The position numbers were made by a program, and so were the translations under genes. The notes beneath the pieces were generated by a model. It worked only from the letters and a program-made list of their open reading frames with translations, searched no databases and had not been told where the DNA came from. From the IMG/VR virus record IMGVR_UViG_3300032087_005124, positions 1,975-65,974 of that record: a DNA stretch of 64,000 nucleotides. The stretch is one strand, 5' to 3'. Of this stretch, positions 1 to 57,712 are shown one piece after another. How positions within the stretch are numbered: position 1 is the first letter of the stretch; every line of letters starts with the position of its first letter. The stretch is from a virus.

Positions 1-1
1 T

Positions 2-2937: not shown

Positions 2938-2938
2938 A

Positions 2939-4021: not shown

Positions 4022-4026
4022 CTGGC

Positions 4027-16679: not shown

Positions 16680-17172
16680 GTGTAAGACACAGAGAATGCC
16701 TTATACTCTTTCTTTTTTAGATCAAAAATTATATACCAGTTTATCTTTTGATGCTGATATAAAATTTCCTGAGTCCAGTGACTTTGTTAAGAAGTTTTGG
16801 ATTTTGAAGGAATATAAAAAAGTAAGTTCAGATTTGGAGCTTTCAGAGTCTAAAGATTCTGATAAACAAATGACAAGCTCTTCTTCTTATGAGATACACA
16901 AAAGGTTTCAAGGCGATGAACTTATCGTTGAGATAGTTCAAAGCCTTGCTTTTTGTGAAGAATTTGATTATTTTAGCAAGGCGGATTTTGATTTGCCTAC
17001 AGGAGATGAAGAATTAGATAAAATGCTCAATGATATAAAAGATTCTGATTTTGATGAATCAGTTATAAAAGCTTCTATCTTAGATAGTGTGCTTCAAGGC
17101 AATTATCCTCAAAATCCTGATGATGAACCAAAAGAGGAAGAAGAAGATTCCTCTGAGGAATCAAGTGAATAG
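16657..17172 (+). CDS. Hypothetical acidic protein
   Basis: 171-aa ORF in operon with acidic C-terminal tail. Confidence 0.6.
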   Translation: MSQIWKFKCKTQRMPYTLSFLDQKLYTSLSFDADIKFPESSDFVKKFWILKEYKKVSSDLELSESKDSDKQMTSSSSYEIHKRFQGDELIVEIVQSLAFCEEFDYFSKADFDLPTGDEELDKMLNDIKDSDFDESVIKASILDSVLQGNYPQNPDDEPKEEEEDSSEESSE

Positions 17173-18001
17173 AGTTTTAATAACTGGAGCTGGCGGGTTT
17201 ATAGGAGGGAACTTAGCCGCATATTTAGAAGCTCGCGGCTTTCAAGTCACAAGATTTGATATATCTTTAGGCAACACTGGTTATCCAGATATTTTTAATC
17301 AAGATTTTGTTATTCATCTTGGTGCAAATTCAAGCACTACAGAAACCAATCTAAAAAAAATATTAGATCAAAACTTTGAATACTCAGCCAACCTTTACAA
17401 GATGTGTGAGGCTTATGAGATAAAGTTTCAATATGCTAGTAGCGCATCTGTTTATGGTACATCTAAAACTTTTAAAGAAGATGAGTTTTGCAAGCCATTG
17501 AGTCCTTATGCCTTTAGTAAGTATATGTTTGATTGTTGGCTAATGAATCAAGAATATCCATACCAAGGGTTTAGATATTTTAATGTTTACGGTTTGGGTG
17601 AAGATAAAAAAGGAAAGCAAGCTAGTCCTGTTTCAAAATTTATAAAAGAAGCGCAGACAGGCGGCAAAATAAAAATCTTTGAGAAAAGCGAAAAATATAA
17701 AAGAGATTTTGTTTCTGTAGACGATGTGTGTGAAATGCATTACAAACTTTTGACAAATGACGCTTCAGGAATATTTAATATAGGTACAGGTCAGCCTATC
17801 TCTTTCAGAGATGTAGCAGAGATAATAAAAGAAAACTCTAACTCTGAGATAGAAGAAATACCAATGCCCAAAGAGCTAAAAGGGCAGTATCAAAAATTTA
17901 CAAAAGCTGATATATCAAAGCTAAATGAAATAATTGGTGATTATGAGTGGAAAAGTGTAAGTCAATATGTAGAAGAAAACATTGATGCTTTCCTTAATTA
18001 A
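17165..18001 (+). CDS. hldD: ADP-L-glycero-D-manno-heptose 6-epimerase
   Basis: TGAGGFIG, HLGANSSTTE, NFEYS, YASSASVYG, YAFSK, FRYFNVYG, RDFVSVDD, GIFNIGTG, YQKFTKAD; likely GTG start at 17165 (track start 17087). Confidence 0.9.
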   Translation: MNRVLITGAGGFIGGNLAAYLEARGFQVTRFDISLGNTGYPDIFNQDFVIHLGANSSTTETNLKKILDQNFEYSANLYKMCEAYEIKFQYASSASVYGTSKTFKEDEFCKPLSPYAFSKYMFDCWLMNQEYPYQGFRYFNVYGLGEDKKGKQASPVSKFIKEAQTGGKIKIFEKSEKYKRDFVSVDDVCEMHYKLLTNDASGIFNIGTGQPISFRDVAEIIKENSNSEIEEIPMPKELKGQYQKFTKADISKLNEIIGDYEWKSVSQYVEENIDAFLN

Positions 18002-18251
18002 AAGTGTTTTAAAATCAATTGAGCTATATTTATCTTTAAAAAATAAGCTCTTCTACATAGAATTAAGACATAACCATGAAAAAACACGCAAAAGAATTAT
18101 TCAAGAGCTTGAAGATATTAGGGCTAGTGGCGGTGATGCAGACCGTGCTGATCTCTTGCGAGACGAACTCATCCGTGAAGACGCAAGTTTTAAATATTTA
18201 TCAGCCTTCTACGCTGAGTCTAGAGAAGGGAAGTCCGATAAGGACAACTAA
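17982..18251 (+). CDS. Putative i-spanin (Rz-like)
   Basis: Hydrophobic/amphipathic N-terminus plus charged helical body; overlapped in the +1 frame by a lipoprotein gene. Confidence 0.5.
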   Translation: MMLSLIKSVLKSIELYLSLKNKLFYIELRHNHEKTRKRIIQELEDIRASGGDADRADLLRDELIREDASFKYLSAFYAESREGKSDKDN

Positions 18252-18345
18252 AGGTATTTACACTCCTCAAACCGATGAGGTTTGGCACTCTGATGCGAGG
18301 TTCCGCAAACTTGAGCGCCAGTTATATTTTCCCAGCAATAAGTGA
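18076..18345 (+). CDS. Lipoprotein, putative o-spanin (Rz1-like)
   Basis: Basic N-terminus, h-region, lipobox L-I-S-C28; overlaps the preceding ORF in the +1 frame. Confidence 0.6.
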   Translation: MKKHAKELFKSLKILGLVAVMQTVLISCETNSSVKTQVLNIYQPSTLSLEKGSPIRTTKGIYTPQTDEVWHSDARFRKLERQLYFPSNK

Positions 18346-18367
18346 GCTTTTTGTGTAATTAAGACAA

Positions 18368-18649
18368 ATGGCTTTTATTACTGGGATTCCTATTAGAAAT
18401 AGTATACACACTGATTTATCTACAGACAGTGGTGATTGGCAGAATTATAGAAATATTTTAACTGGTCAATTTTATAGCGGAGGAGGGGTAAATACAGGTA
18501 GATATCAAGAGTTTACTCAAGATATACAAGAGTATAATAGGAAGATAGATACCCTTACAGGCAGATGGGGTCATACTGGACTTTTCCTTGATCCATATAA
18601 TGCTGGATTCAGATATACAGGTACAGGAAATTTTAGAACTTGGCCTTGA
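18368..18649 (+). CDS. Small TG-rich hypothetical (probably virion) protein
   Basis: 93 aa with seven Thr-Gly dipeptides; preceded by GTGTAA. Confidence 0.6.
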   Translation: MAFITGIPIRNSIHTDLSTDSGDWQNYRNILTGQFYSGGGVNTGRYQEFTQDIQEYNRKIDTLTGRWGHTGLFLDPYNAGFRYTGTGNFRTWP

Positions 18650-18673
18650 TTTTTTTTTATAGTATCATATAAT
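18646..18673 (+). promoter_or_regulatory. Sigma70-like promoter TTGATT-16-TATAAT
   Basis: Hexamers at 18646-18651 and 18668-18673; ATG 8 nt downstream. Confidence 0.5.
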
Positions 18674-18681
18674 ACAAATAT

Positions 18682-18888
18682 ATGAAAACTATTGAATTCA
18701 CTGATCAGGAATTGCAGGTTCTCACTCAACTTTTAGATATCGCAGTAAAAGCTGGCGGTCTCAATGTTGCTGAAGCTGCAAGCGTACTCGCAAGGAAAAT
18801 TTCTCAAGAAATTGAGCAAACTCCTCAATTTGCAGAACCTTCAATCGCTCCCGTAGAGGATGACGAAGAAGAAAGCGCAGAGGAATAA
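18682..18888 (+). CDS. Small hypothetical protein with acidic tail
   Basis: 68-aa ORF with its own promoter-like upstream region. Confidence 0.65.
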   Translation: MKTIEFTDQELQVLTQLLDIAVKAGGLNVAEAASVLARKISQEIEQTPQFAEPSIAPVEDDEEESAEE

Positions 18889-18898
18889 AATATTTCCC

Positions 18899-18927
18899 TT
18901 GACGATTACAAAATTGTAATATAAAGT
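18899..18927 (+). promoter_or_regulatory. Sigma70-like promoter TTGACG-17-TAAAGT with an inverted repeat ATTACAA-N2-TTGTAAT in the spacer
   Basis: Inverted repeat at 18905-18920; ATG of the beta-barrel gene 7 nt after the -10. Confidence 0.55.
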
Positions 18928-18934
18928 TAAGATT

Positions 18935-19612
18935 ATGAAGAAATTTATTCTTACACTACTATTGGGCGCTATCTTTGGTGGCGCAGCGTATGGGACAACT
19001 ATTGCAGATTCTTCTGTAGGAGTTGGCTTTTCAGCTTATAACTTCGAAACAAGTAGAGGTTTAGCAGCTAGAGAAGACGCTCTTGGTTATTCCCTTGATT
19101 TAACAGCACCTCTTAACGGCGGAGACCTCTCATTTAATGTAGGTTTGTATGATGTTGATGGAGATTCTGAAGATTCAGATTATTCTATCACCTATACAAA
19201 AGGCATTGAACTATTAGGTCAAAAGCTAGGGGCTACAGCAAGTTTCTCTGGACTTGATTCCACTTTCGGGGACAGAGATGAAATTGCAGTTGGCTTATCT
19301 TACAAGTACTCTCTATTAGATACATCATGGGCAGTTTGGCATGATTTAGATAATGAGTGGTATGGTGTTGAGATTGGAGCTTCAAGCACTTTTGAGACTC
19401 CTATTTCAAACCTATCAGTAACTCCATTTGTTACTCTTAACCTTGTAGATGAGTATACAGCAGTTGAGGCTGGTCTTAAAGCAGGTTGGTCTATCACTGA
19501 CCAGTTATCCGTACTCTCTAAGATTTCATACAATAACAATGATTTCGAAGGATCTTCTTTTGAAGTAGAAGATGAGTGGATTATTGGAGCAGGAATAGGC
19601 TTTAAATTCTAA
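18935..19612 (+). CDS. Outer-membrane beta-barrel protein (TorF/Gcw_chp-like putative porin)
   Basis: Sec signal peptide, alternating amphipathic beta strands, C-terminal IGAGIGFKF Bam signature ending in Phe. Confidence 0.75.
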   Translation: MKKFILTLLLGAIFGGAAYGTTIADSSVGVGFSAYNFETSRGLAAREDALGYSLDLTAPLNGGDLSFNVGLYDVDGDSEDSDYSITYTKGIELLGQKLGATASFSGLDSTFGDRDEIAVGLSYKYSLLDTSWAVWHDLDNEWYGVEIGASSTFETPISNLSVTPFVTLNLVDEYTAVEAGLKAGWSITDQLSVLSKISYNNNDFEGSSFEVEDEWIIGAGIGFKF

Positions 19613-19650
19613 TTTAAAATTAATTTTAATTAGTTTTAATAACAAAATTA

Positions 19651-19679
19651 AAAAGCTCTCCGCAAGGAGGGCTTTTTTT
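19651..19679 (+). terminator. Rho-independent terminator
   Basis: GCTCTCC-GCAA-GGAGGGC stem with GNRA loop followed by T7; upstream A4 suggests bidirectionality. Confidence 0.85.
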
Positions 19680-19694
19680 GTGTAAGTACTTTCA

Positions 19695-20012
19695 ATGGAA
19701 CCAGAAAAATCCTTGTTAAAAGAATTCCTTCAGGGTGGATGGCTTGTCCCTTTGATTGGAGCCGCCGCCATGTTTGCTAGACTTTTGTCTGCAAATAACG
19801 AGTTAAGTTTAAAACAACAATTTAAAAGAATCCTTACGGCCGCTATCGCTTCAGGTATTGCTTGGTTTGTTTTAGAACAAACGGATGTATCTTCTCTTAC
19901 TAAAGCTATAACTTATGGAATAATAGGTGTTGTTAGTCCTGAAGTTATAGGAGGTATAGTGAGATTAGGCCAGAAGTTTGAGACTAGCCCTTGGAAATTT
20001 TTTAAAAAATGA
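19695..20012 (+). CDS. Putative holin
   Basis: Several hydrophobic segments and a basic C-terminus; upstream of the endolysin. Confidence 0.55.
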   Translation: MEPEKSLLKEFLQGGWLVPLIGAAAMFARLLSANNELSLKQQFKRILTAAIASGIAWFVLEQTDVSSLTKAITYGIIGVVSPEVIGGIVRLGQKFETSPWKFFKK

Positions 20013-20254
20013 AATCTAAGTATATAATATTTTGCATATTAGGTATAGTAGCAGCATTTGCTGCTCAATTTCTTTCCATCTACAATGAACTACATGGCTT
20101 ATTATTGCATGGATATGAAACAGGATTATCTGTTGATGATATGAAACATTTACTTGATGAAAATATGTATAATTTTAAATCTTCTATAACAAAAATGTTG
20201 GCGTTGCTTTTTGTTATAGGTATTTGCGCGTCGTTTAAGAAAAAATGTTACTAA
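20009..20254 (+). CDS. Small two-TM membrane protein (holin/antiholin-like)
   Basis: N- and C-terminal hydrophobic helices; lies between the holin-like gene and the endolysin. Confidence 0.45.
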   Translation: MKSKYIIFCILGIVAAFAAQFLSIYNELHGLLLHGYETGLSVDDMKHLLDENMYNFKSSITKMLALLFVIGICASFKKKCY

Positions 20255-20255
20255 A

Positions 20256-20876
20256 ATGAATTTTAAAGGTAAAAAAGAAGTAGTTAAAGCTGTACAAAAA
20301 CTATTAGGTGTTTCTGCTGATGGGGCAGATGGTCCCGTAACATGGAATGCTATTTTAGCAAAGCTATCCACAAAGAATGTTCCAGCACCAGATGGTGATA
20401 TACCTCAAAAAATGGTTTCATTAGCTAGAGAAGAAATAGGAGTTTCTGAGGTTGATGGTAGTAACTGCGGGCCAAGAGTAGATGAATATAAAGCCGCGAC
20501 TTGGCTTGATCCAGATAAAGGTTGGCCATGGTGCGCTGCTTTTATTTGTTGGCTAGTCAGAGAGGCAATTGAAGGTGAGGATGTAAAGTTTAAAAGACCA
20601 AGAACTGCTGGCGCTTGGGATTTTGAGAATTGGGCCAAACAGCAGGTTTCAAATGGCATAGATCTTCGTAAACCAACAAATGGAAATATTAAAGCTGGAG
20701 ATATAGTTGTCTTTACCTTTTCCCATATAGGCATCGCTGTCAAAGATATAGACTCAAGTGGTTATGTAGTAACTATAGAGGGGAATACAAATGGCGCTGG
20801 AAGCAGAGAAGGTGGATCTGTCTTAGAGAAGAAGCGCCATGTTTCTAAAATAAGAAGTAGAATAAGAATTCTTTAA
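20256..20876 (+). CDS. Endolysin: peptidoglycan-binding domain plus CHAP amidase
   Basis: VQKLLGVSADGADGPVT PG-binding motif; WCAAF, SHIGIA and IEGNT CHAP motifs. Confidence 0.9.
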   Translation: MNFKGKKEVVKAVQKLLGVSADGADGPVTWNAILAKLSTKNVPAPDGDIPQKMVSLAREEIGVSEVDGSNCGPRVDEYKAATWLDPDKGWPWCAAFICWLVREAIEGEDVKFKRPRTAGAWDFENWAKQQVSNGIDLRKPTNGNIKAGDIVVFTFSHIGIAVKDIDSSGYVVTIEGNTNGAGSREGGSVLEKKRHVSKIRSRIRIL

Positions 20877-20919
20877 TATTTTGTTGCTTTATTTTCTTTT
20901 TACGTTATTTCTTTTTTAA

Positions 20920-21216
20920 ATGGAAGATATACCTATAAAAGTTGATAGAAATGAAATATTTAATTTTGTGGTCGGCAAATCTATTTTTGACCCTATAGAA
21001 AAATGTATAGACCCTACTAGATATGAAGTTTTTGATACTTTTATCTATGACAATGAAACTGATAGGAAATATGTACAAGGGCCAGTTTATAATAGATTTT
21101 GCTGGGAAGTGACTAAGTTAAAAAACTTATCAGAAAATATGACAGGTGCAGAAATTATAAGAATTTGCGAAGAATTAGAGGAAATAGCACCTAAACTTGT
21201 CAATCTTGAGAAATAA
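20920..21216 (+). CDS. Hypothetical protein
   Basis: 98-aa ORF filling the gap on the coding strand. Confidence 0.6.
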   Translation: MEDIPIKVDRNEIFNFVVGKSIFDPIEKCIDPTRYEVFDTFIYDNETDRKYVQGPVYNRFCWEVTKLKNLSENMTGAEIIRICEELEEIAPKLVNLEK

Positions 21217-21266
21217 TTCCCTGTTGTGGTTCTTTGTGTAATATATTGTATAACCTATAATATATT

Positions 21267-21455
21267 ATGGAAGTAATTCTCAAATTAATTGAAGACAATC
21301 CTTGGTTCGGTGTTCTTACCGCCGCAATCGCTTTAGCATCTGCAATTACAGCAGCAACTCCTACACCCAAAAAAGGTACTATTTGGGCTAAAATCTACGC
21401 TCTTATTGATTGGGCTGCGATTAACATAGGAAAAGCTAAAGATAAAGGGGAATAA
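21267..21455 (+). CDS. Small membrane protein, holin-like
   Basis: WFGVLTAAIALASAITAATPTP hydrophobic segment; basic C-terminus. Confidence 0.5.
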   Translation: MEVILKLIEDNPWFGVLTAAIALASAITAATPTPKKGTIWAKIYALIDWAAINIGKAKDKGE

Positions 21456-21458
21456 TCC

Positions 21459-21486
21459 TTGAATAATCTTTGTGATAGGCTATAAT
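21459..21486 (+). promoter_or_regulatory. Sigma70-like promoter TTGAAT-16-TATAAT for the heptose gene run
   Basis: TATAAT at 21481-21486; ATG 7 nt downstream; no Shine-Dalgarno. Confidence 0.55.
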
Positions 21487-21493
21487 ACTCTTA

Positions 21494-21868
21494 ATGAGTA
21501 TGCAGCCTATTTTTAGCCGATTAGAAGTTCACCCCAAGGGTTGGGGAGAAGAGCTTTGGATTACCAACAATTATAAATATTGTGGTAAAATTTTACGTTT
21601 TAAACAGGGGTCTTCCTTCTCAATGCATTATCACATTCAGAAGGAAGAAACTTGGTGTGTCACTAGAGGTAAACTAAAGTTAGAATATTTTAATTTAGAG
21701 ACTTCTGAACGCCTTGAAAAAGAATTAGTAGAAGGCGACACTGTTCATTTAAAACCTTGCATCCCGCACAAGTTGACAGCATTAGAAGATTCAGATGTCT
21801 TTGAAGTCAGCACTCAACATTTCAATGAGGACTCTTATAGAGTAGAAAAAGGCTCATCGCAGAAATGA
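21494..21868 (+). CDS. Cupin-fold protein (sugar isomerase-like)
   Basis: KGWGEE, SMHYHIQKEETW, IPHKLTALEDS, EVST cupin metal motifs. Confidence 0.8.
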   Translation: MSMQPIFSRLEVHPKGWGEELWITNNYKYCGKILRFKQGSSFSMHYHIQKEETWCVTRGKLKLEYFNLETSERLEKELVEGDTVHLKPCIPHKLTALEDSDVFEVSTQHFNEDSYRVEKGSSQK

Positions 21869-22611
21869 AGTTTTTAGTTATAGGTGAAACTTGCAAAGAC
21901 GAGTTTTGCTATGGCAAAGCTAATCGTTTGTGTCCAGAAGCTCCTGTTCCTGTATTTATACCAGATCATAATACAAGCAACTTAGGTATGGCGGCTAATG
22001 TTTATGAAAATATGCGGGCTATAGATAACGAGACTCATAAAGATATACCTTTTAAAAATGACATAGCATTAAGTACTAATTACTGCGTTGGTTCTAAAAC
22101 TAGATATATTGACATAGAATCAAATCAAATGTTTTTAAGGGTTGATACAGATAAGTATGAAGCTTGTGACAAGTTGCCAGAAAACATAGAGTCATTTGAT
22201 GCCGTTATTGTTTCAGATTATAACAAAGGATATTTAACAGACTCGCAGTTAAGAGAGATTGCAAGAAGAAGCAAATTAAGTTTTTTAGATACTAAAAAAC
22301 AATACAATCAAGAATGGGCTAATTTGTTTACTTTTATTAAGATAAATGATAAAGAGTACAAGGAGAATAGTTGGACACATCAAGGAGAGAATTTAATAAT
22401 CACAAAAGGTTCAAAGGGTTGTTGGTACAATAATAAAGATTATAAACTTAGCAAACCTTCAGAAGTTAGAGATGTTTCAGGCGCAGGAGATACATTTTTA
22501 GCTGCATTTGCTTATTCATATACAGCCACCAAAGATGTTGAATGCTCAATAATATATGCCCAAGATTGTTGTCAAAGAGTAATTAAAAAGAAAGGTGTTG
22601 CTACAATATGA
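21865..22611 (+). CDS. hldA: Heptose-7-phosphate kinase (HldE kinase domain/HldA, PfkB family)
   Basis: RLCPEAPVPV, GMAANV, AVIVSDYNKG, IKINDKE, ITKGSKG, DVSGAGDTF. Confidence 0.85.
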   Translation: MKFLVIGETCKDEFCYGKANRLCPEAPVPVFIPDHNTSNLGMAANVYENMRAIDNETHKDIPFKNDIALSTNYCVGSKTRYIDIESNQMFLRVDTDKYEACDKLPENIESFDAVIVSDYNKGYLTDSQLREIARRSKLSFLDTKKQYNQEWANLFTFIKINDKEYKENSWTHQGENLIITKGSKGCWYNNKDYKLSKPSEVRDVSGAGDTFLAAFAYSYTATKDVECSIIYAQDCCQRVIKKKGVATI

Positions 22612-23114
22612 AACATAAGAAAATAATGACTTTTGAGGAAATAAAAAATGAAAGACTTTTCGCTAAACAGTTAGAAGAAGTAGGCATAAAAAAATTTTTT
22701 ATTTTTACTAACGGTTGCTTTGATTTATTTCATGCTGGACACGCTAGTTTGCTTAACGGGATGAAGAATGCTTGTAGTTTAAATTCTAAGTTAGTGGTTG
22801 GTATAAATGGAGATGCGAGTGTTAAATCAGTAAAAGGTAAAGACAGGCCAATAATACCCGCTAAACAAAGAGCTTATACTGTAGCTTGTCATGAAGCTGT
22901 TGATTATGTATTTATTTTCAATACTAAAACTGTAGCTAAACAACTAAAAGAACTTCAGCCAGATTTTTGGTGCAAAGGTGGCGATTATAATGAAGATTCT
23001 TTAAATAAATCAGAGTTAAAAGCAAAAGGTAATGCTATACTAAAAGTGATACCTTTTGTAGAAAATGTAAGTACAAGTAATATAATAAGTAAAATTCATG
23101 ATAAAAAGTTATAA
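22608..23114 (+). CDS. hldC: Heptose-1-phosphate adenylyltransferase (HldE domain II/HldC)
   Basis: FTNGCFDLFHAGH, LVVGINGDASV, KGKDRPI, VDYVFIF, KGGDY, STSNII. Confidence 0.9.
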   Translation: MKHKKIMTFEEIKNERLFAKQLEEVGIKKFFIFTNGCFDLFHAGHASLLNGMKNACSLNSKLVVGINGDASVKSVKGKDRPIIPAKQRAYTVACHEAVDYVFIFNTKTVAKQLKELQPDFWCKGGDYNEDSLNKSELKAKGNAILKVIPFVENVSTSNIISKIHDKKL

Positions 23115-23664
23115 AGAGATAGAAGGGTGGTTTAATTATGAGAGAGTTTATGAAGACTTTTCTAATTTTTTAAGAGACGATGATATTTTTGTTGAGATTG
23201 GAGTTTGGAAAGGTGCTTCTATTTGTTTTTTAGGAGAGAGGCTGAGTGCAAAAAATAAAAAACCAAAAATTTTTGCTGTTGACACCTTTAAAGGTAGCTC
23301 TAATGAGGAAATTCATATAGAAAAAGTAAAAGAAGCAGGAGGTTCTAATTTACCTATCTTCAACCAAAATCTTAAAGATTTAAAATTACAATCTTTGATA
23401 ACTCCCATTGAAAAAACTTCAATTGAAGCCTCACAATTATTCGATGATAATAGTCTGGCAGGGGTGTTTATTGATGCAAATCATACATACGAAGAGGTAA
23501 AAAAAGATCTCGGTGCTTGGTATCCTAAGATTAAAAAAGGCGGTTGGATTACTGGGCATGACTACGTAGCTGACGTAAAAAAAGCTGTTGATGAATTTTT
23601 TTCGTATAATAAAAATCCTAAAGGTTATAAAAATTGTAATTGGTGTTGGGCCGTGCAAGTATGA
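23098..23664 (+). CDS. Class I SAM-dependent methyltransferase (Methyltransf_24-like)
   Basis: FVEIGVWKGAS, AVDTF, FIDANHTYE, GGWITGHDY. Confidence 0.85.
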   Translation: MIKSYKEIEGWFNYERVYEDFSNFLRDDDIFVEIGVWKGASICFLGERLSAKNKKPKIFAVDTFKGSSNEEIHIEKVKEAGGSNLPIFNQNLKDLKLQSLITPIEKTSIEASQLFDDNSLAGVFIDANHTYEEVKKDLGAWYPKIKKGGWITGHDYVADVKKAVDEFFSYNKNPKGYKNCNWCWAVQV

Positions 23665-23999
23665 AATATATTATAGACATAGATGGAACAATCTGTACAC
23701 ATGATAGTCCAGATACCCCTTACGACCAAGCGAGACCGATAAAAGATAGAATACATTTTTTTAATCAATTATTTGATGCTGGTCATGAAATAGTTTATTG
23801 GACTGCTAGAGGGGGAAATAGCGGTAAAGATCACGCCTCTTTAACAAAAAAGCAGCTTGATGAATGGGGTGTTAAAAGAACAAAATTAATGATGGGTAAG
23901 CCTCCATATGATTATTGGATTGATGATAAAGCTTACAATGTAAAAGATTTTTTTATGACTGACACGACAACGGGGGAAACAGAAACAATTACGTTATGA
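23661..23999 (+). CDS. HAD-superfamily phosphatase (capsule-biosynthesis type)
   Basis: IIDIDGTI motif I, WTARG, MGKP, WIDDK; likely start ATG 23661 (track start 23640). Confidence 0.8.
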   Translation: MKYIIDIDGTICTHDSPDTPYDQARPIKDRIHFFNQLFDAGHEIVYWTARGGNSGKDHASLTKKQLDEWGVKRTKLMMGKPPYDYWIDDKAYNVKDFFMTDTTTGETETITL

Positions 24000-24532
24000 T
24001 ATCTAATAAAGCTAAAAGTTTATCTTCAGCAGGTCACATAACTCAGTCCTTTAAGGCAGGGACAGAGGGCCAGCAAAGATTTTATGATTCTTGCAGAGCA
24101 TTAAATAAAGATATAAAGAAAACCTCAAAAGCTGATGATATTGGGAATCACACAGACTTTGTTGTAGATGGTCAAACTTTTGATGTTAAGGGTTTAAAAA
24201 AGACGCAAAAAGAGGGTAAAATTTTACTAGAGTTAAAAAATGTTCAAGGCAAAATGGGTTGGTGCAATCATGAATTAAAGCCTGAGTGGATAGCTTTTGA
24301 TTTTGGTGCATTTTTTCTTTGTGTCCGAAATACTCATCTCAGAGAGTTGGTAGAAAATAAATGCGATTGGGAGGATGAAGTATCTAAAATTAATGACGCT
24401 TTATACAAAGGATATACTAGAAAAGATAGGAAAGATTTAATGACTGTTGTCACCCTGTTTGATGTTTTAAATACATGCGAGCATTGGTTTTTACCTTATC
24501 AGGAATATCGTTCCCCAATGGAGCTTTTGTAG
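23996..24532 (+). CDS. PD-(D/E)xK nuclease-fold protein
   Basis: HTDFVV...FDVKG...ILLELKN...GW pattern. Confidence 0.55.
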   Translation: MISNKAKSLSSAGHITQSFKAGTEGQQRFYDSCRALNKDIKKTSKADDIGNHTDFVVDGQTFDVKGLKKTQKEGKILLELKNVQGKMGWCNHELKPEWIAFDFGAFFLCVRNTHLRELVENKCDWEDEVSKINDALYKGYTRKDRKDLMTVVTLFDVLNTCEHWFLPYQEYRSPMELL

Positions 24533-26796: not shown

Positions 26797-29700
26797 ATGG
26801 GAGACTTTCAAAGAAGATTAGATAACGGTGCAGCATCTAATGACTTAGTGCCATTTTCTCCATCTGTATCGCCTTTATATGATACAAATGGAGCTTTAAG
26901 TGGTTACAGTTATGCATTTAACCAAGGTTATGTTTTTAATAACATGGCCTCTGGGAAAACATCTCGTGAAGAATCCATCATAGCAGGGATGGATCAAGTT
27001 TACAATGTCGGAGAAAATGAAGAGGTCTCATTTAAGGTTGATGTTGTTTTAAACAAAGAAAACTTTTTAGTTGACTCTAAAGTTTTTGGAACTGGAACTG
27101 GACAATCATCTTTTCCTGCTACAACCTTTCAATATTTATTTGATGATAGTATTGAAGATACAGGTTTTATTACAGGCTATTATCCTGTATGCAAGGTTAA
27201 AGGTGGCCATATTTTAGAATTAGAACTTAGAGATAATATACAGTTTGATAAAAGGGGATTACAGCAAATAGGCGCTACAGGGGCATCTTCAGAAGGTGAA
27301 GGAGGTATTGGGCATATTATTATAGAATCTGGCAGAGATGATGAAACTCTTCCTACAAGATTTAGAGCTATATCAGGGGGTTCAGGAATACAAGTTAGAT
27401 ATGATGACACTGGAAATCCTTCAGGAAGCCCATATATAGTTATTGACACAACCAATCAGGGTCTTGGCAATTATGTAGCAAATACTAGTATAACTGGAGG
27501 TTCTACAGGAGCAAGAATTTATATCACTGGAACTAATAGACCTCAACTATTAAGAGAACTTACAGGGGCGGCAGCAGATAGTAGTACTCAATTTTCAGAA
27601 ATTTATGTTTTTGAGGAAGATAGCAAAATTGTTTTAAGCGGTCAAGTAACAGGTTTATGGACTGGAGAAAATGTTACTCAAACTGATGGGGCCACACCAG
27701 AATATATTTACTTAGATAATACGGGTCCAACTGAAAACCCTCCTAGCAAGGCGCAATTTAGAGGTATAAGAGGGAAAGCTGTTACAGAGTCTAGTGTTTC
27801 AGAAGGCAAGCAAACAGCAACCGTAAATGTTGATGAAGTTGATGAAGTTATAGAAATATCTGTAGATTTAAGTGATTGTGTTGGTATTGGTGGTTCGGCG
27901 GCAACAAATAAGGTTATAACAGGTTCTCTTCCTACAGGTTCGATAATAGTAGGAGGCGCTCATAACTCTATTAGTGGTCACTTCAATGTAATCAGTGCGG
28001 GATCTCACAATAAAATCTCTGGAAATGAGTTAAACTTTATTGGTGGTGGTTCAGGTAATGATGTTACTTTTAGTAGATTTTCATCTTCTCTTGGGGGTGA
28101 GAACAATGATATAAGTGGATCAAATAGATCTGTCGTATTAGGAGGTAGAAATAATCTTATACATAGTGGTGGATTTAGTTTTTTAGGTGGGGGTGACGGT
28201 AATAAAATTACTGGAAGTCAAAGTTCCTATTCTTCAATTATTGGAGGTGGAGGTAACTTAATCACTGGTTTAAATTCAGTTTTAGCTGGAGGTAATGTAA
28301 ACTCTATATTTAGCGATTACTCTTTTATAGGTGGAGGAGAATCAAATATAGCCAGTGGAGAATTTTCTATTATAGCTGGAGGAGAAGAAAATAAAACATT
28401 TAGCACTCACTCTGTAGTGCTTGGTGGCCAAGATAACACGGCTTCTGGTATTTATTCATTTGTAGGTGCTGGTAAAGAAAACAAAGTTTTAGCTGATTAT
28501 GGTTTTGCTGCTGGTAGAAACTCTACAGTACAAGAAAACCATGATGGTGCTTTTGTTTTATCAGATAGTAACACAACAGAAACTTTATCTTCTGGCGCAA
28601 ATACTTTAACACTAAATTTTAAAAGCGGTGTTTTTGTTGACTCTGATAGTGGTATTTATATAAATGGTAATCCTGTACTAACAGGAGTTAGTGGATCTGA
28701 GGGAGATACTTTACAGATTGTTACTGATAGAGGTGCGACTACAACTAATGATATAACAGCTCCTAATCTTTTTGTATTCAATAACGCAGCATTAAAAGCT
28801 AACGGCGTTGGATACCTTGAGCTAGGAAACACTGGCGGTGGAGTTATACAAGTTGGTGGAGATGGTGTAAACAGCACAATAGCACCAAGGTTCAATAACC
28901 TGAAGATACAAACATCAAGAGATTCTGATGACATAATATTTTTAGCAGGTGCTTCAACAACAGAGCTTCTTCGTCTAGATGCTTCGGCTAGTTCCATCAA
29001 CGTGCCTGATAATGTTCAGTTAAATATTGGTGCTGGCATTGACTTAATTCACAATAGTACAAATGGTTTTATAAAAAACACTGTCGGTGATCTTTACATT
29101 GAGAACACGACAAACGGAAAAGACACAATATTTAAAAATGATAATGACTCAGGCACAGCAACCGAGCTACTTAGACTCGACGGGTCGGCTAGTTCAATCA
29201 AAGTCCCAGATGATGTCTTTTTACAATTTGGTTCTTCAAATGATTTACAAATTTACCACACAACAACCACCAACCAAAGTTGGATATATAACAGTCAAGG
29301 GCATTTAAAATTAACTAATGCCGCTATCAATTCTGATATAGTTTTTTCCTGTAAAGACGCAACAACTGTTAACGAGTTAATGAGACTCGATGGATCGACT
29401 AGTAATGTCGGTATAGGAACAAGTGTACCTTCAGGAAAATTAGATGTCAATGGAGCAATTCATGCAAGAGGAGGCACAGTTGCTGGCAATACAGGAGAAT
29501 CTGACACTACTAATGCAGCTATAGTTCTTCAAGATAATAACTATATTTATGGACAGACTTCTAATAATTACTTAAGAAGGATTATTGGAAAAGACTCCGC
29601 TGGAGTAATTACTGTAGGACAAGGCGAAACTTCTATTGTAAAAGAAATTTCATTTGAAGCGGGTAATCATAGTGATGGAAAATACACCTTCCATTCAGGA

Positions 29701-32700
29701 ACTACAGAATTAGCAAGAATACAAGCGGATGGTAACATGGGTATTGGCACAGATTCTCCAAGTGCTAGACTCCATGTCAACGGTCCCGCTGCGGGATTTG
29801 CAGAAGCTTTAAGGTTACAAAGAGCGGGTGGTAATTATTATTCTGTTGGTTTAGATAATAGCAGGGTTAATTTTGTTTACAATAGTCAAACTACTGCAAA
29901 CTCAACTCTCACCATAGATGGTGGTAATACTAGAGTCGGTATAGGCACACATGCACCATCAAGGCATCTTCATGTTGAAGGAGGAGGAACAAATGTTCTT
30001 GCAAACTTTGAAAGCACAGATGCTGGGGCTTATTTGTCTTTCTCTGATGATTCTACAACCAACGATACTTCCGTTCGTTTGGGGGCAGTAGGAAATAATT
30101 TTCAGTTTTTTACTAATGGGTCAGAACAAGTTAGGATAACTTCTTCTGGTAATGTCGGTATAGGAACAGACAATCCAGTTTATACATTAGAAGTCGATGT
30201 TGACAATGATGATTGGGTAAGGTTTAAAAGCAATGATAATAAGATGGGTCTTATCTTAGCGGATAATGACACTGTTCAATATTTAATGGCTGAAAATAGC
30301 GCATTAAGCTTAGGTCATCGAGCAGCCCTTCACAATGAAAATTTAAATATTATAGATGGCGGAGATGTTGGCATAGGAACGACAACTCCTTCAGGTAAAC
30401 TTCATGTTTTTAATACTGGAAATGCCTCTGGTGATATATTTATTGTAGATGGATCTCACGGAAGGCTCTTCAATGTTTCTGATGAGACTACTGGAATTAT
30501 ATTTAGCGTAAATGATGCTGCTGGACTTCCTGTTTTAGAAGTCGATAGCACTTCTGGTTATGATAAGATTTCTATAGGAGAATTTGGAACAAATGCATTA
30601 GTTGTTTCTGGTAGTACATCTACTTTTGGAGGTGACGTACTAGGAACTGGGGCAGGTAACCGCATTACGAACAACGGAACTCCTTACCTTCTTTCTGGCG
30701 ATGCGGCAGCGACACTCACGCTCCAAGATGTTACTGATAATGGGGCAACTACGACTAACGCTTTAAAAACACAACTTATTTCTATAACAGGAGGAGGCAC
30801 TGACTCACCTGTTGGAGTCAATGGACTTCACTTAACATACGATGGCACAGCAACAGCTTATATTAATGCACAACACAATGGCACTAGTAATAGGCACTTA
30901 ATATTTAAAGCTGCTTCATACAATTTTAATATTGGTGATTTAGCGGTAAATACCGACAATTTATATGTAGATGTATCTGAAAATAGAGTAGGTATAAATG
31001 AAGATAGTGTTGATGCGACCTTACACATGACCAATGTCGGTGGAGGTGTGGTTAACCAAAAATTTGAGCGGGCAGGAGTATCTGCTTGGCGATTAGGCAT
31101 ACCTAATGGGCAAACTTACTTTGCATTCGATGATACTAATGATGATTTATCAACTGCGAAGGTAGTCATCACAAAAACTGATGGCCATGTTGGTATAGGA
31201 ACAAATGCTCCTTCAGGCGCATTAGATGTTAACGGCGTTGCTTACTTTAGAGGTGGCACAACTCAAGGCCATACTCAAGATGAAACTGATGCAGCTATAG
31301 TTCTGTACGATGATGATTATATCTACTCTAGAAATGCGGGAGATTATTTAAGAAGAGTTATAGGAAAAGATTCTGGTGGAGCGATACATATTGGAGAACC
31401 TAGTACTTCAATAATTAATGAAGTAAAATTCTATGCGGGTAGTGGATCTTCAACTAAATACACATTCCACTCAGGAACTACAGAGTTAGCTAGAATCGAC
31501 GGAAGTGGTAACTTATTAATTAACACAACATCAAACAATTTCGGCAATAAACTTAATGTTGCAGGAGGCTCAACTAGAGTAAAAGAATTGCAAGTAGCTG
31601 CGGGTGTTGGCTACTCCAATTACGGCAAATTAACTCATAATGACAATCAATTTATTATAGAAGCACAAAGAGGGTCTCTTGATGGAGATATCGTTATAAA
31701 ACCTTACAGAAACTTGCTTATTAGTGGTGATAATGTAGGTATAGGAACTACTAATCCTGCTGATACTCTTCAAGTAGCAGGACAAGTAAGAATTGATGGT
31801 TCTACAACAGATGGACTGACAATAACATCTAGTGCAGGGGCAAGTCAAGGATTATTACTTTATAATAACTCAAACACAGATACAGCTAGTATTATAAACT
31901 TCTATGATGGGCCATTAATCTTGGGACAGGCTAACGCAGAAGTCATGAGACTTCATGATAATGGTAATGTTGGTATAGGGACAGATAATCCTCAAAGAAA
32001 GTTAGATGTCAGAGGAACTGCTGGTGTTCAATATGCACCTACAGCTCACGACACTCAAGGTGCAATCTTTCTTCTTGCTGACGGTAGTAACAACTCATAC
32101 ATAGAACTTAGAGACGGAAGTAGTAATGTAGATGTTAAACTTAACACTGCTGGGGATAGTTATTTTAACGGCGGTAATGTTGGTATAGGAACCACAAGCC
32201 CATCAGCACCTTTACACATTCAATCAAGTACTGATCATAATAAAATAAGACTCACAAATGATAACTCTCAAACTTGGGGGTTAATGATTGGCAATTCTGG
32301 GTATTATCAAGGGTACTTTATGATTGACCAAGTTGGGTCAGGTCAAAGGTTTGTAATAAATGATCAAGGAAGTGTAGGAATAGGAACTAATGCCCCATCA
32401 GAAAAACTCCATGTGGATGAAGGCTTTATACTTGCTGATGGAGCATCCACAAATCACGGATTTGAATTAAGAAGAGATTCTTCTGACACTTTCCAAATAA
32501 GACATTTAGGCGGTAATTTTACTATAAATAACCTTACTGATAATCGTAAAGATTTATCTATTGATGGAAATGGTAATGTTGGTATAGGAACAGATATTCC
32601 ATCTGAAAAACTTACGGTTGATGGTAACATAAGAATAAATGGTGACAGTAGAGAATTTTATTTTGCTGGAAACCAAGCGCAGATAAGAGCTAGTAGTGCT

Positions 32701-35643: not shown

Positions 35644-36352
35644 TTACTCACCAAGAATAGTAACAGATGGATTAATAGTTTGTCTAGACGCTAAAGATAT
35701 TAAATCATATGCGGGTAGTGGCACAACGTGGACTGATAGAAGTGGCAATGATACTAATGGTAGCATAAATGGGGCTACTTTTAATTCAAATGGTTATTTT
35801 GATTTTGATGGAACTAATGATTTAGTAGGGCCAGATACTTTCGACTATGATGATAGTGGTGGACAATTTACTGTATGTGTTTGGCTTAATCCAGATACCT
35901 TTACAAGCAGTAATACTTACTTAGCGATTGTAAACAGAACTGATAACAGTAATCATATATACAGTTTGTTTATAGATTCTAGTTCTGGTAGCGGTACGGA
36001 TGGTGAAATGGCATCTTGGTTTTTTGACACTGGTGGAACAATTCGTAACCATACCTCTAGTGCAAATTGTGTTTTAAGTTTAAATAAATGGAATTTTTGC
36101 GTATGGAGGTTTGCTGATGCCGTTGGATATACTTATGATGTTTTAAATTCTGACGGTTCTTCAAATCATACATCATCTGCCACTCAAGCTATTAGAAAAG
36201 ACTCTACTAGTCAGTTTACTATTGCTCGTTGGAGGGATGGTAGTTACTTCTTTAATGGCAAGTTAAGTAACATAAATATTTACAATAAAAAACTTACAGA
36301 CGAGGAGGTAAAACAAAACTTTAATGCTCAAAAAAGGAGGTTTGGAATATAA
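35633..36352 (+). CDS. LamG/concanavalin A-like lectin domain protein (paralogue 1)
   Basis: SPRIVTDGLIVCLDA N-terminus, FDFDGTND, FTVCVWL, YFFNGKLSNINIYNKKLTDEEV. Confidence 0.8.
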   Translation: MGTNYSPRIVTDGLIVCLDAKDIKSYAGSGTTWTDRSGNDTNGSINGATFNSNGYFDFDGTNDLVGPDTFDYDDSGGQFTVCVWLNPDTFTSSNTYLAIVNRTDNSNHIYSLFIDSSSGSGTDGEMASWFFDTGGTIRNHTSSANCVLSLNKWNFCVWRFADAVGYTYDVLNSDGSSNHTSSATQAIRKDSTSQFTIARWRDGSYFFNGKLSNINIYNKKLTDEEVKQNFNAQKRRFGI

Positions 36353-37418: not shown

Positions 37419-37435
37419 GTGTAATTTAAAGTAGT

Positions 37436-57709: not shown

Positions 57710-57712
57710 AAA

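What the first reader, a model, noticed from the sequence alone, without database searches (positions are those of the whole stretch)
17165..23999. Near-complete ADP-heptose pathway in a phage that also carries a GT9-like transferase and giant adhesins: candidate virion-heptosylation or LPS-rewriting system
Seen: HldD, separate HldE kinase and adenylyltransferase genes, a HAD phosphatase, a cupin and a methyltransferase lie here. A GT9-like gene is at the window start, three more GTs are elsewhere, and about 29 kb encode Ser/Thr/Gly-rich adhesins. Established: ADP-L-glycero-D-manno-heptose is the donor for LPS core heptosyltransferases (GT9) and for protein heptosyltransferases such as Aah/TibC that decorate autotransporter adhesins. 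Inference: the phage makes its own ADP-heptose either to glycosylate its fibres/capsid (shielding, stability, receptor tuning) or to remodel host LPS against superinfection.
Basis: partly seen in the sequence, partly recalled or inferred. Interest (0 to 1): 0.8.

Follow-up and report, generated by a model that had tools for sequence, protein, structure and literature searches.

The report
Phage heptose-sugar module with cupin isomerase
An uncultured marine phage carries a gene set for making the activated seven-carbon sugar ADP-heptose, of a kind long annotated in ocean phages, in which a small cupin protein most likely replaces the usual first enzyme; what the phage puts the sugar on is still unknown.

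Summary
The window, an IMG/VR phage record about 52% complete, encodes an HldD-like epimerase (17165-18001). After 3.5 kb of lysis and membrane genes comes a translationally coupled operon (21494-24532): cupin, HldA-type kinase, HldC-type adenylyltransferase, sugar O-methyltransferase, mini-HAD phosphatase and an unknown ORF. No GmhA or GmhB orthologue is present.

The same cupin, kinase, transferase, HAD and epimerase genes cluster in cyanomyoviruses such as P-SSM5, and the kinase occurs in at least 423 IMG/VR stretches. Viral heptose enzymes were reported active in vitro in 2024, so the module is not new.

The cupin most likely replaces GmhA:
- It folds like the isomerase domain of type II phosphomannose isomerases.
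- It abuts the kinase in most loci.
- It is fused to a full HldE-type kinase in a CPR bacterium that has no SIS-domain match.

This scan has already noted that idea on other DNA (63 notes, at least 54 genomes). I found no paper describing it.

The "GT9-like" gene is a heptosyltransferase by fold. It has a second GT9-like neighbour and lies in a 3.4-kb island absent from the closest relative.

The acceptor (host envelope or virion) is unresolved. The fibres have no serine runs or other sign of glycosylation.

The parts
1..496 (+). C-terminal part of a 301-aa GT9-like glycosyltransferase. The whole gene is contig 1565-2470 (L001:1565-2470). A second, 271-aa GT9-like ORF lies just upstream, outside the window (L001:753-1568).
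   Evidence: No Pfam hit. Atlas feature score 0.97 and TM 0.73-0.78 to GT9 clusters. AF2 pLDDT 78.7. Of the top 30 Foldseek PDB hits, 29 are GT9 heptosyltransferases (WaaF 1psw E 2.8e-8, WaaC, 3tov, TibC). The 271-aa ORF matches PF01075 weakly, E 8e-4. The gene lies in a 3.4-kb island absent from relative G001.
486..4006 (+). Other sugar genes next to the GT9-like gene: class I methyltransferase (486-1058), CAP59/Anp1-like glycosyltransferase (1055-1771), DegT-family PLP enzyme (1768-2937) and GDP-mannose 4,6-dehydratase (2939-4006).
   Evidence: Pfam. Everything up to 2938 belongs to the variable island, while gmd is shared with G001.
17165..18001 (+). HldD-like ADP-glycero-manno-heptose 6-epimerase. 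The ORF is open from GTG 17087 and the true start is uncertain.
   Evidence: TIGR02197 1.7e-69. PDB 1eq2 3e-48 with catalytic Ser/Tyr/Lys/Lys conserved and the N-terminal Rossmann segment about 25 aa shorter.
18076..21455 (+). Intervening genes that are not sugar genes: small ORFs, a porin-like ORF (18935-19612), a holin-like ORF (19695-20012), a CHAP endolysin (20256-20876) and a small membrane ORF (21267-21455).
   Evidence: Pfam and PHROG. Conserved in the same order in relatives.
21494..21868 (+). Metal-binding cupin of type II phosphomannose-isomerase type. Proposed sedoheptulose-7-P to D-glycero-D-manno-heptose-7-P isomerase, taking the place of GmhA.
   Evidence: Cupin_2 and Lyx_isomer over their cut-offs. 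AF2 pLDDT 95. The top 17 Swiss-Prot fold hits are the PMI domain of XanB, ManC and AlgA. 30 of 36 relatives hit PF01050. Stop/start overlap with the kinase. Co-occurrence and fusion data.
21865..22611 (+). Compact (248 aa) HldA/HldE-domain-I-type heptose-7-phosphate kinase.
   Evidence: TIGR02198 2.1e-32. phrog_8133 1.7e-69. PDB 4e84, with PEAPVPV and GAGD motifs.
22608..23114 (+). HldC/HldE-domain-II-type heptose-1-phosphate adenylyltransferase.
   Evidence: TIGR02199 1.8e-39. PDB 5x9q 6e-23. HxGH motif and FVENVSTS, with Val, not Arg, at motif position 5.
23098..23664 (+). SAM-dependent sugar O-methyltransferase-like gene. It is a strain-variable insertion between the transferase and the HAD.
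   Evidence: Methyltransf_24 2.3e-21, with TylF and CmcI over their cut-offs. Absent from L006-L010 and present in L011; the L005 contig ends 22 codons into it. Found in 1 of 86 kinase loci.
23661..23999 (+). Mini-HAD phosphatase (112 aa, DxDxT). Proposed heptose-1,7-bisphosphate 7-phosphatase, taking the place of GmhB.
   Evidence: phrog_1238 8.6e-25, a family mis-named 'phosphoheptose isomerase'. PDB 9iqw 'capsule biosynthesis protein' 2.3e-8. Within 10 kb of the kinase in 44 of 86 viral loci.
23996..24532 (+). Unknown 178-aa ORF that closes the operon. A terminator-like hairpin lies at 24510-24524.
   Evidence: No family hit. The Atlas finds only viral hypothetical proteins. Conserved in this lineage, 12 of 86 loci. 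Hairpin.
26797..53140 (+). Giant fibre-like ORFs of 2948, 2195, 879 and 2093 aa.
   Evidence: No Pfam domains apart from a weak T4 gp36 hit. S+T+G is about 30% in the three largest (26% in the 879-aa ORF), with 38 VGIGT motifs. No Ser run is longer than 4.

Best explanation
The phage encodes its own route to ADP-L-glycero-beta-D-manno-heptose, built from non-standard parts.

Proposed steps (all inferred from homology and gene context; none assayed):
1. A PMI-type metal cupin isomerises sedoheptulose-7-P to D-glycero-D-manno-heptose-7-P, in place of SIS-fold GmhA.
2. A compact HldA-type kinase phosphorylates C1.
3. A 112-aa capless HAD removes the 7-phosphate, in place of GmhB.
4. An HldC-type transferase adds AMP.
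5. A separately placed HldD epimerase converts the D,D form to the L,D form.
6. A strain-specific O-methyltransferase may methylate the sugar or the finished glycan.

The five operon enzymes are translationally coupled (ATGA overlaps).

The donor is then most likely used by phage GT9-fold transferases. Two lie in tandem at the contig start. Relatives carry a further ORF that passes the Pfam GT9 cut-off, and P-SSM5 has a weakly GT9-like ORF two genes from its cassette.

The acceptor is not identified. My odds are about 45% a host envelope glycolipid or glycan (receptor masking or superinfection exclusion), 35% virion proteins, and 20% something else.
For: - Enzyme identities.
- The same five genes cluster in cyanomyovirus P-SSM5 at 31-47% identity, and three of them in S-SM2.
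- No SIS/GmhA match in 14 kinase-bearing viral records, one of them 100% complete.
- The cupin lies within 10 kb of the kinase in 60 of 86 viral loci, as often as the transferase.
- The cupin is found elsewhere in the three most complete 'cupin-less' records.
- The sets of cultured phages carrying the cupin and the kinase are almost identical.
- When both genes are in one locus the median gap is -6 bp.
- The cupin fold matches the PMI domain of XanB, ManC and AlgA, rmsd 1.3-2.0 A.
- 30 of 36 cupin relatives hit PF01050.
- A Levyibacteriota MAG has a kinase-cupin fusion, a transferase-GmhB fusion and an HldD scoring above its cut-off. No SIS match was found in that 1.2-Mb genome, whose completeness is not given.
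- GT9 fold of the 301-aa ORF. GT9 signals in the neighbouring ORF, in relatives and in P-SSM5.
- Viral heptose enzymes are reported to make ADP-heptose in vitro.
Against: - Nothing was assayed.
- The kinase, transferase and epimerase score below NCBIfam equivalog cut-offs.
- In the PDB fold search the cupin resembles dioxygenase and decarboxylase cupins as closely as isomerases.
- About half of viral cupin loci and 67 of 79 cellular cupin loci have no kinase nearby, so the cupin is not dedicated to this pathway.
- Two of five cellular genomes that have the cupin-kinase pair also have strong SIS_2 matches, which need not be GmhA.
- The host is unknown and could supply heptose-7-P itself.
- The 301-aa GT9-like gene is missing from the closest relative, and its Pfam membership fails.
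- No acceptor evidence of any kind was found.
Confidence: 0.62

Rival explanations
1. Virion heptosylation. The ADP-heptose is used in the cytoplasm by the phage GT9-like enzymes to O-glycosylate fibres or capsid proteins, as TibC/Aah heptosylate autotransporters and as mycobacteriophages are said to glycosylate their virions.
For: - The operon lies directly upstream of the structural and fibre block.
- TibC is among the fold hits.
- The N-terminal half of the 301-aa GT9-like protein is acidic, pI 4.9. That fits poorly with an anionic Kdo-lipid A acceptor (weak argument).
- No lipid-carrier, flippase or ligase genes were seen in the window.
- The glycosyltransferase island varies between near-identical phages.
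- An earlier scan note describes a similar phage with serine-run fibres (unchecked).
Against: - The fibres have no serine runs or AIDA-type repeats.
- WaaF and WaaC rank above TibC in the fold search.
- The GT9-like genes sit beside replication genes, about 25 kb from the fibres.
- No glycoproteomic data exist for this or any related phage that I could find.
Confidence: 0.3
2. The module makes an activated hexose, not heptose. The cupin acts as a true phosphomannose isomerase (fructose-6-P to mannose-6-P), and kinase, HAD and transferase then give an NDP-mannose without a mutase, feeding Gmd and the DegT-family enzyme at 1768-4006.
For: - The cupin is closest to PMI domains.
- gmd is in the same genome and in 14 of 86 kinase loci.
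- Viral cupin 'MPI' genes are read this way in the cyanophage literature.
Against: - An HldD orthologue with all catalytic residues travels with the module, and C6 epimerisation needs a heptose side chain.
- The kinase carries the HldA-specific PEAPVPV loop.
- In the CPR fusion locus the partners are heptose-specific by NCBIfam best hit: HldD above its cut-off and a GmhB-type domain at 157.7 bits (cut-off 178).
- From memory, PfkB-type HldA makes the beta-anomer whereas Gmd needs GDP-alpha-mannose.
Confidence: 0.08
3. It is an auxiliary metabolic module without a dedicated phage transferase. It tops up or diverts the host's own heptose supply, either to keep LPS core synthesis going or to drain sedoheptulose-7-P from the pentose-phosphate or Calvin cycle. 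The GT9-like genes are unrelated passengers.
For: - The 301-aa GT9-like gene is dispensable in the closest relative.
- Many kinase loci show no GT9-like gene within 10 kb.
- The cyanophage literature treats such genes as LPS or carbon-metabolism auxiliary genes.
Against: - GT9 signals recur in this lineage.
- P-SSM5 has a weak GT9 signal two genes from its cassette.
- A full five-enzyme pathway including the final epimerase is costly for a mere top-up.
Confidence: 0.1

Closest known systems
Bacterial ADP-L-glycero-beta-D-manno-heptose pathway (GmhA; HldE, or HldA plus HldC; GmhB; HldD)
   Same: The kinase, adenylyltransferase and epimerase are homologues. Their best PDB sequence hits are HldA 4e84, 5x9q and HldD 1eq2, and signature and catalytic residues are kept. 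The split kinase and transferase genes follow the Burkholderia HldA/HldC layout (that layout is from memory).
   Different: There is no SIS-fold GmhA; a PMI-type cupin sits in its place. There is no GmhB orthologue either; a 112-aa capless HAD of the 'capsule biosynthesis phosphatase' type is present instead. All the enzymes are shortened and score below equivalog cut-offs. The genes are carried by a phage.
Heptose gene set of T4-like cyanophages (T4-GC 304-308 in S-SM2; P-SSM2/P-SSM5 'LPS genes') and rfaE of pelagimyophages
   Same: The same five proteins occur at 31-47% identity and are clustered in P-SSM5. The kinase family is also found in at least 423 IMG/VR stretches.
   Different: This phage belongs to another lineage: DnaE-type replication, no psbA, few PHROG matches. 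Its hldD is separated from the operon by the lysis cassette, and it has an extra methyltransferase and an extra ORF of 178 aa. In the database records the cupin is labelled 'cysteine dioxygenase' or 'nucleotidyltransferase' and the HAD 'phosphoheptose isomerase'.
NDP-heptose biosynthetic enzymes across kingdoms (Tang et al. 2024, Science 385:678, read here through PMC11461863 and PMC11573728)
   Same: That work reports that viruses carry heptose enzymes able to make ADP-heptose in vitro and leaves their role in viruses open.
   Different: The commentary says the phosphatase is absent from viruses, whereas a small HAD travels with the module here. The transferase here has Val, not the Arg ('STTR5') that widens NTP choice, so ADP-heptose is the expected product. 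This assumes I read the motif numbering correctly.
GT9 heptosyltransferases: WaaC and WaaF (LPS core) and TibC/Aah (protein O-heptosylation)
   Same: Two-Rossmann GT-B fold, TM 0.58-0.65 to WaaF, WaaC and 3tov. It has an N-terminal G-D motif and a C-terminal D-T/S-G...A-A-S motif (the motifs as GT9 features are from memory).
   Different: Sequence identity is 10-16% and the Pfam GT9 model does not detect the 301-aa protein. It is shorter (301 aa), has an acidic N-terminal half, and no TibC-type extra elements are evident. The acceptor is unknown.
Type II phosphomannose isomerase domain (C-terminal cupin of AlgA, XanB, ManC)
   Same: The fold agrees at rmsd 1.3-2.0 A over about 110 residues. 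The His/His/Glu/His metal site is present. The chemistry is the same: a ketose phosphate converted to a manno-configured aldose phosphate.
   Different: It is stand-alone at 124 aa and only 17-22% identical. The query itself is below the PF01050 cut-off. The proposed substrate has seven carbons.

Membership tests
ADP-heptose pathway | SIS-fold sedoheptulose-7-P isomerase GmhA | tested here: not met
   PF13580 finds nothing in this record, in 3 relatives or in 10 further kinase-bearing viral records, while the control genomes respond.
ADP-heptose pathway | HldA/HldE-domain-I heptose-7-P kinase | tested here: inconclusive
   The best family is TIGR02198 (2.1e-32), but 112 bits is far below the 345 cut-off. 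The best PDB hit is HldA 4e84, and the PEAPVPV loop and GAGD catalytic motif are present.
ADP-heptose pathway | HldC/HldE-domain-II heptose-1-P adenylyltransferase | tested here: inconclusive
   TIGR02199 gives 134.8 bits against a cut-off of 181.5. The best PDB hit is 5x9q at 6e-23. The HxGH and ...VSTS motifs are present.
ADP-heptose pathway | GmhB (HAD-IIIA heptose-1,7-bisphosphate phosphatase) | tested here: not met
   No hit to TIGR00213 or NF006506. The HAD matches TIGR01689, PNKP-type and phrog_1238 models, and PDB 9iqw. The DxDxT, T and K..DD motifs are intact.
ADP-heptose pathway | HldD ADP-heptose 6-epimerase with Ser/Tyr/Lys triad and second catalytic Lys | tested here: met
   The four best PDB sequence hits are HldD enzymes. 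The alignment to 1eq2 keeps ASSA, YxxxK and the K178 equivalent. TIGR02197 gives 234 bits, below the 274.6 cut-off, because the N-terminal segment is shortened.
Marine-phage heptose module (cyanomyovirus T4-GC 304-308 type) | Homologous cupin, kinase, transferase, HAD and epimerase clustered in one phage genome | tested here: met
   tblastn to P-SSM5 gives 31-47% identity for all five genes within 2.8 kb, and to S-SM2 for three within 2.7 kb (a cupin homologue lies about 7 kb further on). IMG/VR co-occurrence is 60, 60, 44 and 37 of 86 loci.
Glycosyltransferase family 9 | Match to the family sequence model (PF01075) | tested here: not met
   The 301-aa ORF has no hit at E 0.01. The neighbouring 271-aa ORF scores 14 bits against a cut-off of 22. 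A profile of 12 homologues reaches 3tov only at E 0.72.
Glycosyltransferase family 9 | GT-B fold closest to known heptosyltransferases | tested here: met
   Of the top 30 Foldseek PDB hits, 29 are WaaF, WaaC, Veillonella GT9 or TibC (the other is a PSI-NDH supercomplex chain), with E down to 2.8e-8. Atlas structure TM is 0.73-0.78 to GT9 clusters.
Bacterial autotransporter heptosyltransferases (TibC/Aah) | Protein acceptor with serine-bearing repeats; iron-finger and dodecamer elements | tested here: inconclusive
   TibC ranks below WaaF and WaaC (TM about 0.5). No serine runs or AIDA-type repeats occur in the fibres. The extra TibC elements were not examined.
Type II phosphomannose isomerase cupin domain (PF01050) | Family model match and cupin metal site | tested here: inconclusive
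   The query scores 18.6 bits against a cut-off of 23.6, but 30 of 36 close relatives match at E<=0.01. The top 17 Swiss-Prot fold hits are this domain. H45, H47, E52 and H92 are invariant.

The most novel reading that the evidence does not exclude
The cupin is a real sedoheptulose-7-phosphate isomerase, a non-homologous replacement of GmhA used by hundreds of ocean phages and by CPR bacteria and DPANN archaea. In this phage the resulting (methyl-)heptose is put by fast-evolving GT9-like enzymes onto the virion itself, giving a strain-variable sugar coat on a marine phage.
Probability: 0.2. Interest if true: 0.75.

Novelty: new variant of a known kind. Interest (0 to 1): 0.5.

Why it matters
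ADP-heptose is an LPS building block and a potent innate-immune signal. The commentary by the authors of the 2024 cross-kingdom study says it remains unsolved why viruses make it.

This window adds three testable points:
- The viral modules are complete after all: a PMI-type cupin stands in for GmhA and a mini-HAD for GmhB. Both are mislabelled in the databases, which affects counts of 'MPI' and 'phosphoheptose isomerase' auxiliary genes in ocean viromes.
- The donor has plausible phage-encoded users of GT9 fold.
- Those users sit in a strain-variable island, which suggests that the glycan itself is under diversifying selection.

A cupin-type heptose isomerase would also explain heptose pathways in CPR and DPANN genomes that lack GmhA.

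Tried and rejected
- **GmhA elsewhere.** I looked for it in the record, in relatives and in 'cupin-less' kinase phages, expecting a complementary distribution. None has a SIS domain, and the more complete ones have the cupin elsewhere.
- **Sequence proof of GT9.** Pfam finds nothing. A 12-sequence profile against PDB gives only E 0.72. Only the fold gave an answer.
- **Cupin function from PDB folds.** The hits are non-specific: quercetinase, CapF and oxalate decarboxylase rank beside sugar isomerases. The Swiss-Prot library discriminated better.
- **Host.** No tRNA genes. No close cellular relative of the porin-like gene. No psbA in five lineage records. Runs holding the DNA are all marine or related metagenomes, with no culture among them. 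The host stays unknown.
- **DNA-sugar modification as the target.** No thymidylate-synthase-type hydroxymethylase in four records. An Nmad1 domain next to a GT2 gene is the only hint. Judged unlikely.
- **Late-promoter link between operon and fibres.** TTGTGTAA occurs 6 times against 4.05 expected, and sigma-70-like sites are at chance level. No conclusion on timing.
It does not apply to these fibres.
- **ORF 23996-24532.** No function found.
- **RNA evidence.** Only one RNA run, holding 7% of the sampled words; I did not lay reads on it.

Full report
**What is there.** The window is bases 1975-65974 of a 66.8-kb IMG/VR virus record that CheckV rates 52% complete. It carries these phage genes:
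- a RecA/UvsX-like protein, DnaB, a primase, a PD-(D/E)XK nuclease, a split PHP/DnaQ/DnaE polymerase and a Clp-type ATPase;
- a holin-like ORF and a CHAP endolysin;
- four giant fibre-like ORFs.

It has no tRNAs, and I saw no cellular housekeeping genes. The cassette DNA occurs almost unchanged in at least 19 sequencing runs from at least 10 studies, mostly of seawater and other marine samples. I treat it as a cosmopolitan marine phage of unknown host. There is no psbA in five records of the lineage.

**Checking the observation.**
- ORF 17087/17165-18001 is an SDR whose best NCBIfam model by 48 orders of magnitude is ADP-glycero-manno-heptose 6-epimerase (1.7e-69). Its four best PDB sequence hits are HldD enzymes. 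The alignment to E. coli 1eq2 keeps the Ser, Tyr-x3-Lys and second Lys of the active site.
- ORF 21865-22611 is a 248-aa PfkB kinase whose best model is rfaE domain I. Its best PDB hit is Burkholderia HldA, and it has the PEAPVPV loop and GAGD motif.
- ORF 22608-23114 matches rfaE domain II. Its best PDB hit is 5x9q, deposited as 'putative cytidylyltransferase', which I take from memory to be Burkholderia HldC. Its C-terminal motif reads FVENVSTS. The commentaries on Tang et al. link Arg at motif position 5 to CTP/UTP use, and this protein has Val there. If I read the numbering correctly, ADP-heptose is the expected product.
- ORF 23098-23664 is a Methyltransf_24/TylF/CmcI-type methyltransferase.
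- ORF 23661-23999 is a 112-aa HAD with intact DxDxT, Thr and Lys..Asp-Asp motifs. It is closest to small 'capsule biosynthesis' phosphatases.
- ORF 21494-21868 is a cupin with an invariant His-x-His...Glu...His metal site.

All the sugar enzymes are compact and score below curated equivalog cut-offs, so membership by score is not formally met.

About 3.5 kb of lysis and membrane genes separate hldD from an operon that runs 21494-24532. In that operon successive genes overlap by ATGA. It ends with an unknown 178-aa ORF and a terminator-like hairpin.

**This module is already known.** The same five proteins (epimerase, cupin, HAD, kinase, transferase) sit together in Prochlorococcus phage P-SSM5 at 31-47% identity. 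Three of them cluster in Synechococcus phage S-SM2, where they carry the T4-like gene-cluster numbers 304-308. The kinase is found in 31 records of cultured marine cyanomyoviruses (plus four single-cell 'Marine virus' records), and the cupin in an almost identical set. IMG/VR holds at least 423 stretches encoding the kinase.

The literature already covers the following:
- Sullivan et al. 2005 described the P-SSM2 'LPS genes' and proposed host-surface alteration (PMC1079782).
- The pelagimyophage study reports rfaE and glycosyltransferases, many of them inside the host-recognition cluster with tail fibres (PMC7029224).
- Commentaries on Tang et al. 2024 state that viral heptose enzymes make ADP-heptose in vitro. 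They also say the reason viruses have them is unsolved, and that no phosphatase was found in viruses (PMC11461863, PMC11573728).

So a phage ADP-heptose pathway is not a surprise in itself.

**The missing first enzyme.** No SIS-domain protein is encoded in this record, in three relatives or in ten further kinase-bearing viral records, one of them rated 100% complete. The same search responds in the control genomes. The cupin fills the gap on four independent grounds.

1. Position and co-occurrence.
   - The cupin's stop overlaps the kinase start.
   - In 86 viral kinase loci it lies within 10 kb in 60, exactly as often as the transferase. The HAD does so in 44 and the epimerase in 37.
   - In the three most complete records whose kinase locus lacked it, it is present elsewhere.
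   - When both genes are in one locus the median gap is -6 bp.
2. Fold.
   - The AF2 model has pLDDT 95.
   - Its 17 best hits among reviewed proteins are all the C-terminal phosphomannose-isomerase cupin of XanB, ManC/RfbM and AlgA, at rmsd 1.3-2.0 A over about 110 residues.
   - D-lyxose/mannose isomerases and a Thermococcus PMI appear in the PDB list.
   - 30 of 36 close relatives hit PF01050 and 31 hit PF07385, but only one hits FdtA.
3. Chemistry, by inference. Fructose-6-P to mannose-6-P and sedoheptulose-7-P to glycero-manno-heptose-7-P are the same ketose-to-manno-aldose step.
4. A gene fusion. In a Levyibacteriota (CPR) MAG, three overlapping genes encode the following:
   - a full-length HldE-type kinase (314 bits) fused to this cupin;
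   - an adenylyltransferase fused to a GmhB-type phosphatase domain (157.7 bits, best hit, cut-off 178);
   - an HldD above its cut-off (401 bits).

   That 1.2-Mb genome, whose completeness is not given, shows no SIS match.

Counter-evidence on the cupin:
- About half of viral cupin loci and most cellular ones have no kinase nearby.
- Two of five cellular genomes with the cupin-kinase pair also have strong SIS_2 matches, which need not be GmhA.
- The PDB fold list is not specific.

I put the isomerase reading at about 65-70%. No paper in the searchable library contains the words cupin, sedoheptulose, heptose and isomerase together. This scan, however, has already recorded the idea many times on other DNA: 63 notes in at least 54 genomes. 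I had reached it independently. The fusion test was prompted by those notes and confirmed on a locus I fetched myself.

**Phosphatase and methyltransferase.** The mini-HAD is not a GmhB orthologue, but it travels with the kinase in at least 44 of 86 loci. PHROGs and GenBank records mislabel it 'phosphoheptose isomerase'. It is the obvious candidate for the phosphatase said to be missing from viruses.

The methyltransferase is an insertion. It is absent from L006-L010, where the transferase gene abuts the HAD gene in the closest relatives. It is present here and in L011, and L005 ends 22 codons into it.

**Users of the sugar.**
- The ORF whose tail opens the window is 301 aa long (contig 1565-2470). 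Pfam sees nothing in it, and a 12-sequence profile reaches a GT9 structure only at E 0.72. Its AF2 model (pLDDT 78.7) nevertheless matches WaaF, WaaC, a Veillonella GT9 and TibC in 29 of its first 30 PDB hits, the other being a PSI-NDH supercomplex chain. The Atlas agrees.
- The 271-aa ORF just upstream gives a weak PF01050-independent signal: a PF01075 (GT9) match at E 8e-4. By eye it has the N-terminal G-L-G-D and C-terminal D-S-G...A-Y-A motifs, which I recall as GT9 features.
- Relatives carry a further 374-377-aa ORF that passes the GT9 cut-off. It lies about 10 kb before the point where our contig starts.
- P-SSM5 has a weakly GT9-like 370-aa ORF two genes from its cassette.

The 301-aa gene lies in a 3.4-kb block together with a methyltransferase, a CAP59-like glycosyltransferase and a DegT-family enzyme. 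That block is replaced in a relative whose flanks are 96-98% identical. The glycan toolkit therefore varies between strains.

**What receives the heptose.** I could not settle this.
- For the host envelope: WaaF and WaaC are the nearest folds, the glycosyltransferase genes sit with early and replication genes, and this is the standard reading in the literature.
- For the virion: the operon abuts the structural block, no lipid-carrier, flippase or ligase genes were seen, and the putative acceptor domain of the 301-aa enzyme is acidic (pI 4.9).
- The fibres are S/T/G-rich (about 30% against 17%), but they have no serine run longer than four and no autotransporter-type repeats. Nothing marks them as acceptors.
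- DNA as a target is unlikely, because no hydroxymethylase gene was found.

My odds are host envelope 45%, virion 35%, other 20%.

**Verdict.** The module is a new lineage's copy of a known marine-phage heptose cassette. The point of interest is the pathway variant: a cupin in place of GmhA and a mini-HAD in place of GmhB, with variable GT9-like partners. I did not find that variant in the literature I could search, though this scan has already seen it repeatedly.

Noticed in passing
L001:753-2470 (contig bases before and at the window start; window 1-496): There are two tandem, 4-nt-overlapping GT9-like ORFs (271 and 301 aa), not one. The second lies in a 3.4-kb block (contig 1535-4912) that is replaced in relative G001 although the flanks are 96-98% identical.
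   Followed up: partly
window 56948-58181 (- strand): A GT2 glycosyltransferase (PF00535, 8.6e-19) lies next to a 119-aa ORF with an Nmad1/DUF1599 'nucleotide modification associated' domain (25.2 bits, at the cut-off). This could be a nucleotide or DNA modification pair. No thymidylate-synthase-type gene was found in four lineage records.
   Followed up: partly
L237:5023-8322 (Candidatus Levyibacteriota MAG, contig PLZJ01000002.1): A compact three-gene heptose locus made of fusions: HldE-type kinase plus cupin (438 aa), adenylyltransferase plus GmhB-type phosphatase (336 aa), then HldD. No SIS-domain match in the 1.2-Mb genome.
   Followed up: yes
Cultured cyanophage records (e.g. NC_015279 S-SM2, NC_006883 P-SSM2, NC_020837 S-CAM1): Systematic mis-annotation. 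The cupin is labelled 'cysteine dioxygenase' or 'putative nucleotidyltransferase', and the small HAD is labelled 'phosphoheptose isomerase'.
   Followed up: partly
L016 (G002:C1:29511-30368, - strand): The copy of the 301-aa GT9-like gene in a more distant relative has an in-frame TGA. It may be a pseudogene, a sequencing error or recoding.
   Followed up: no
L024:7694-14476 (relative G001, about 10 kb upstream of where this contig begins): A cluster holding a GT9 ORF over the Pfam cut-off (its GT9 match lies at residues 85-143 of 374, so the architecture is unusual), two weak GT-B/GT1-like ORFs (573 and 362 aa) and an Hsp20 gene, followed by ribonucleotide reductase genes. This part is probably missing from the present incomplete contig.
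   Followed up: partly
window 35633-36352, 53775-54464, 54461-55168: Three LamG/concanavalin-like lectin-fold proteins (Laminin_G_3, E 1e-14 to 1e-18) are interleaved with the giant fibre genes. They are candidate carbohydrate-binding receptor-recognition modules.
   Followed up: no
window 17165-17300: The HldD-like enzyme lacks about 25 residues of the N-terminal Rossmann segment present in E. coli HldD (residues about 25-67). Cofactor binding may therefore differ.
   Followed up: no
L013 and L014 (metagenome contigs with distant cupin relatives): The same cupin family also occurs without any heptose kinase nearby. In one case it sits directly before a 4,6-dehydratase-like SDR and near a DegT enzyme; in the other it lies among small phage ORFs. 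The family therefore probably has more than one substrate or role.
   Followed up: partly
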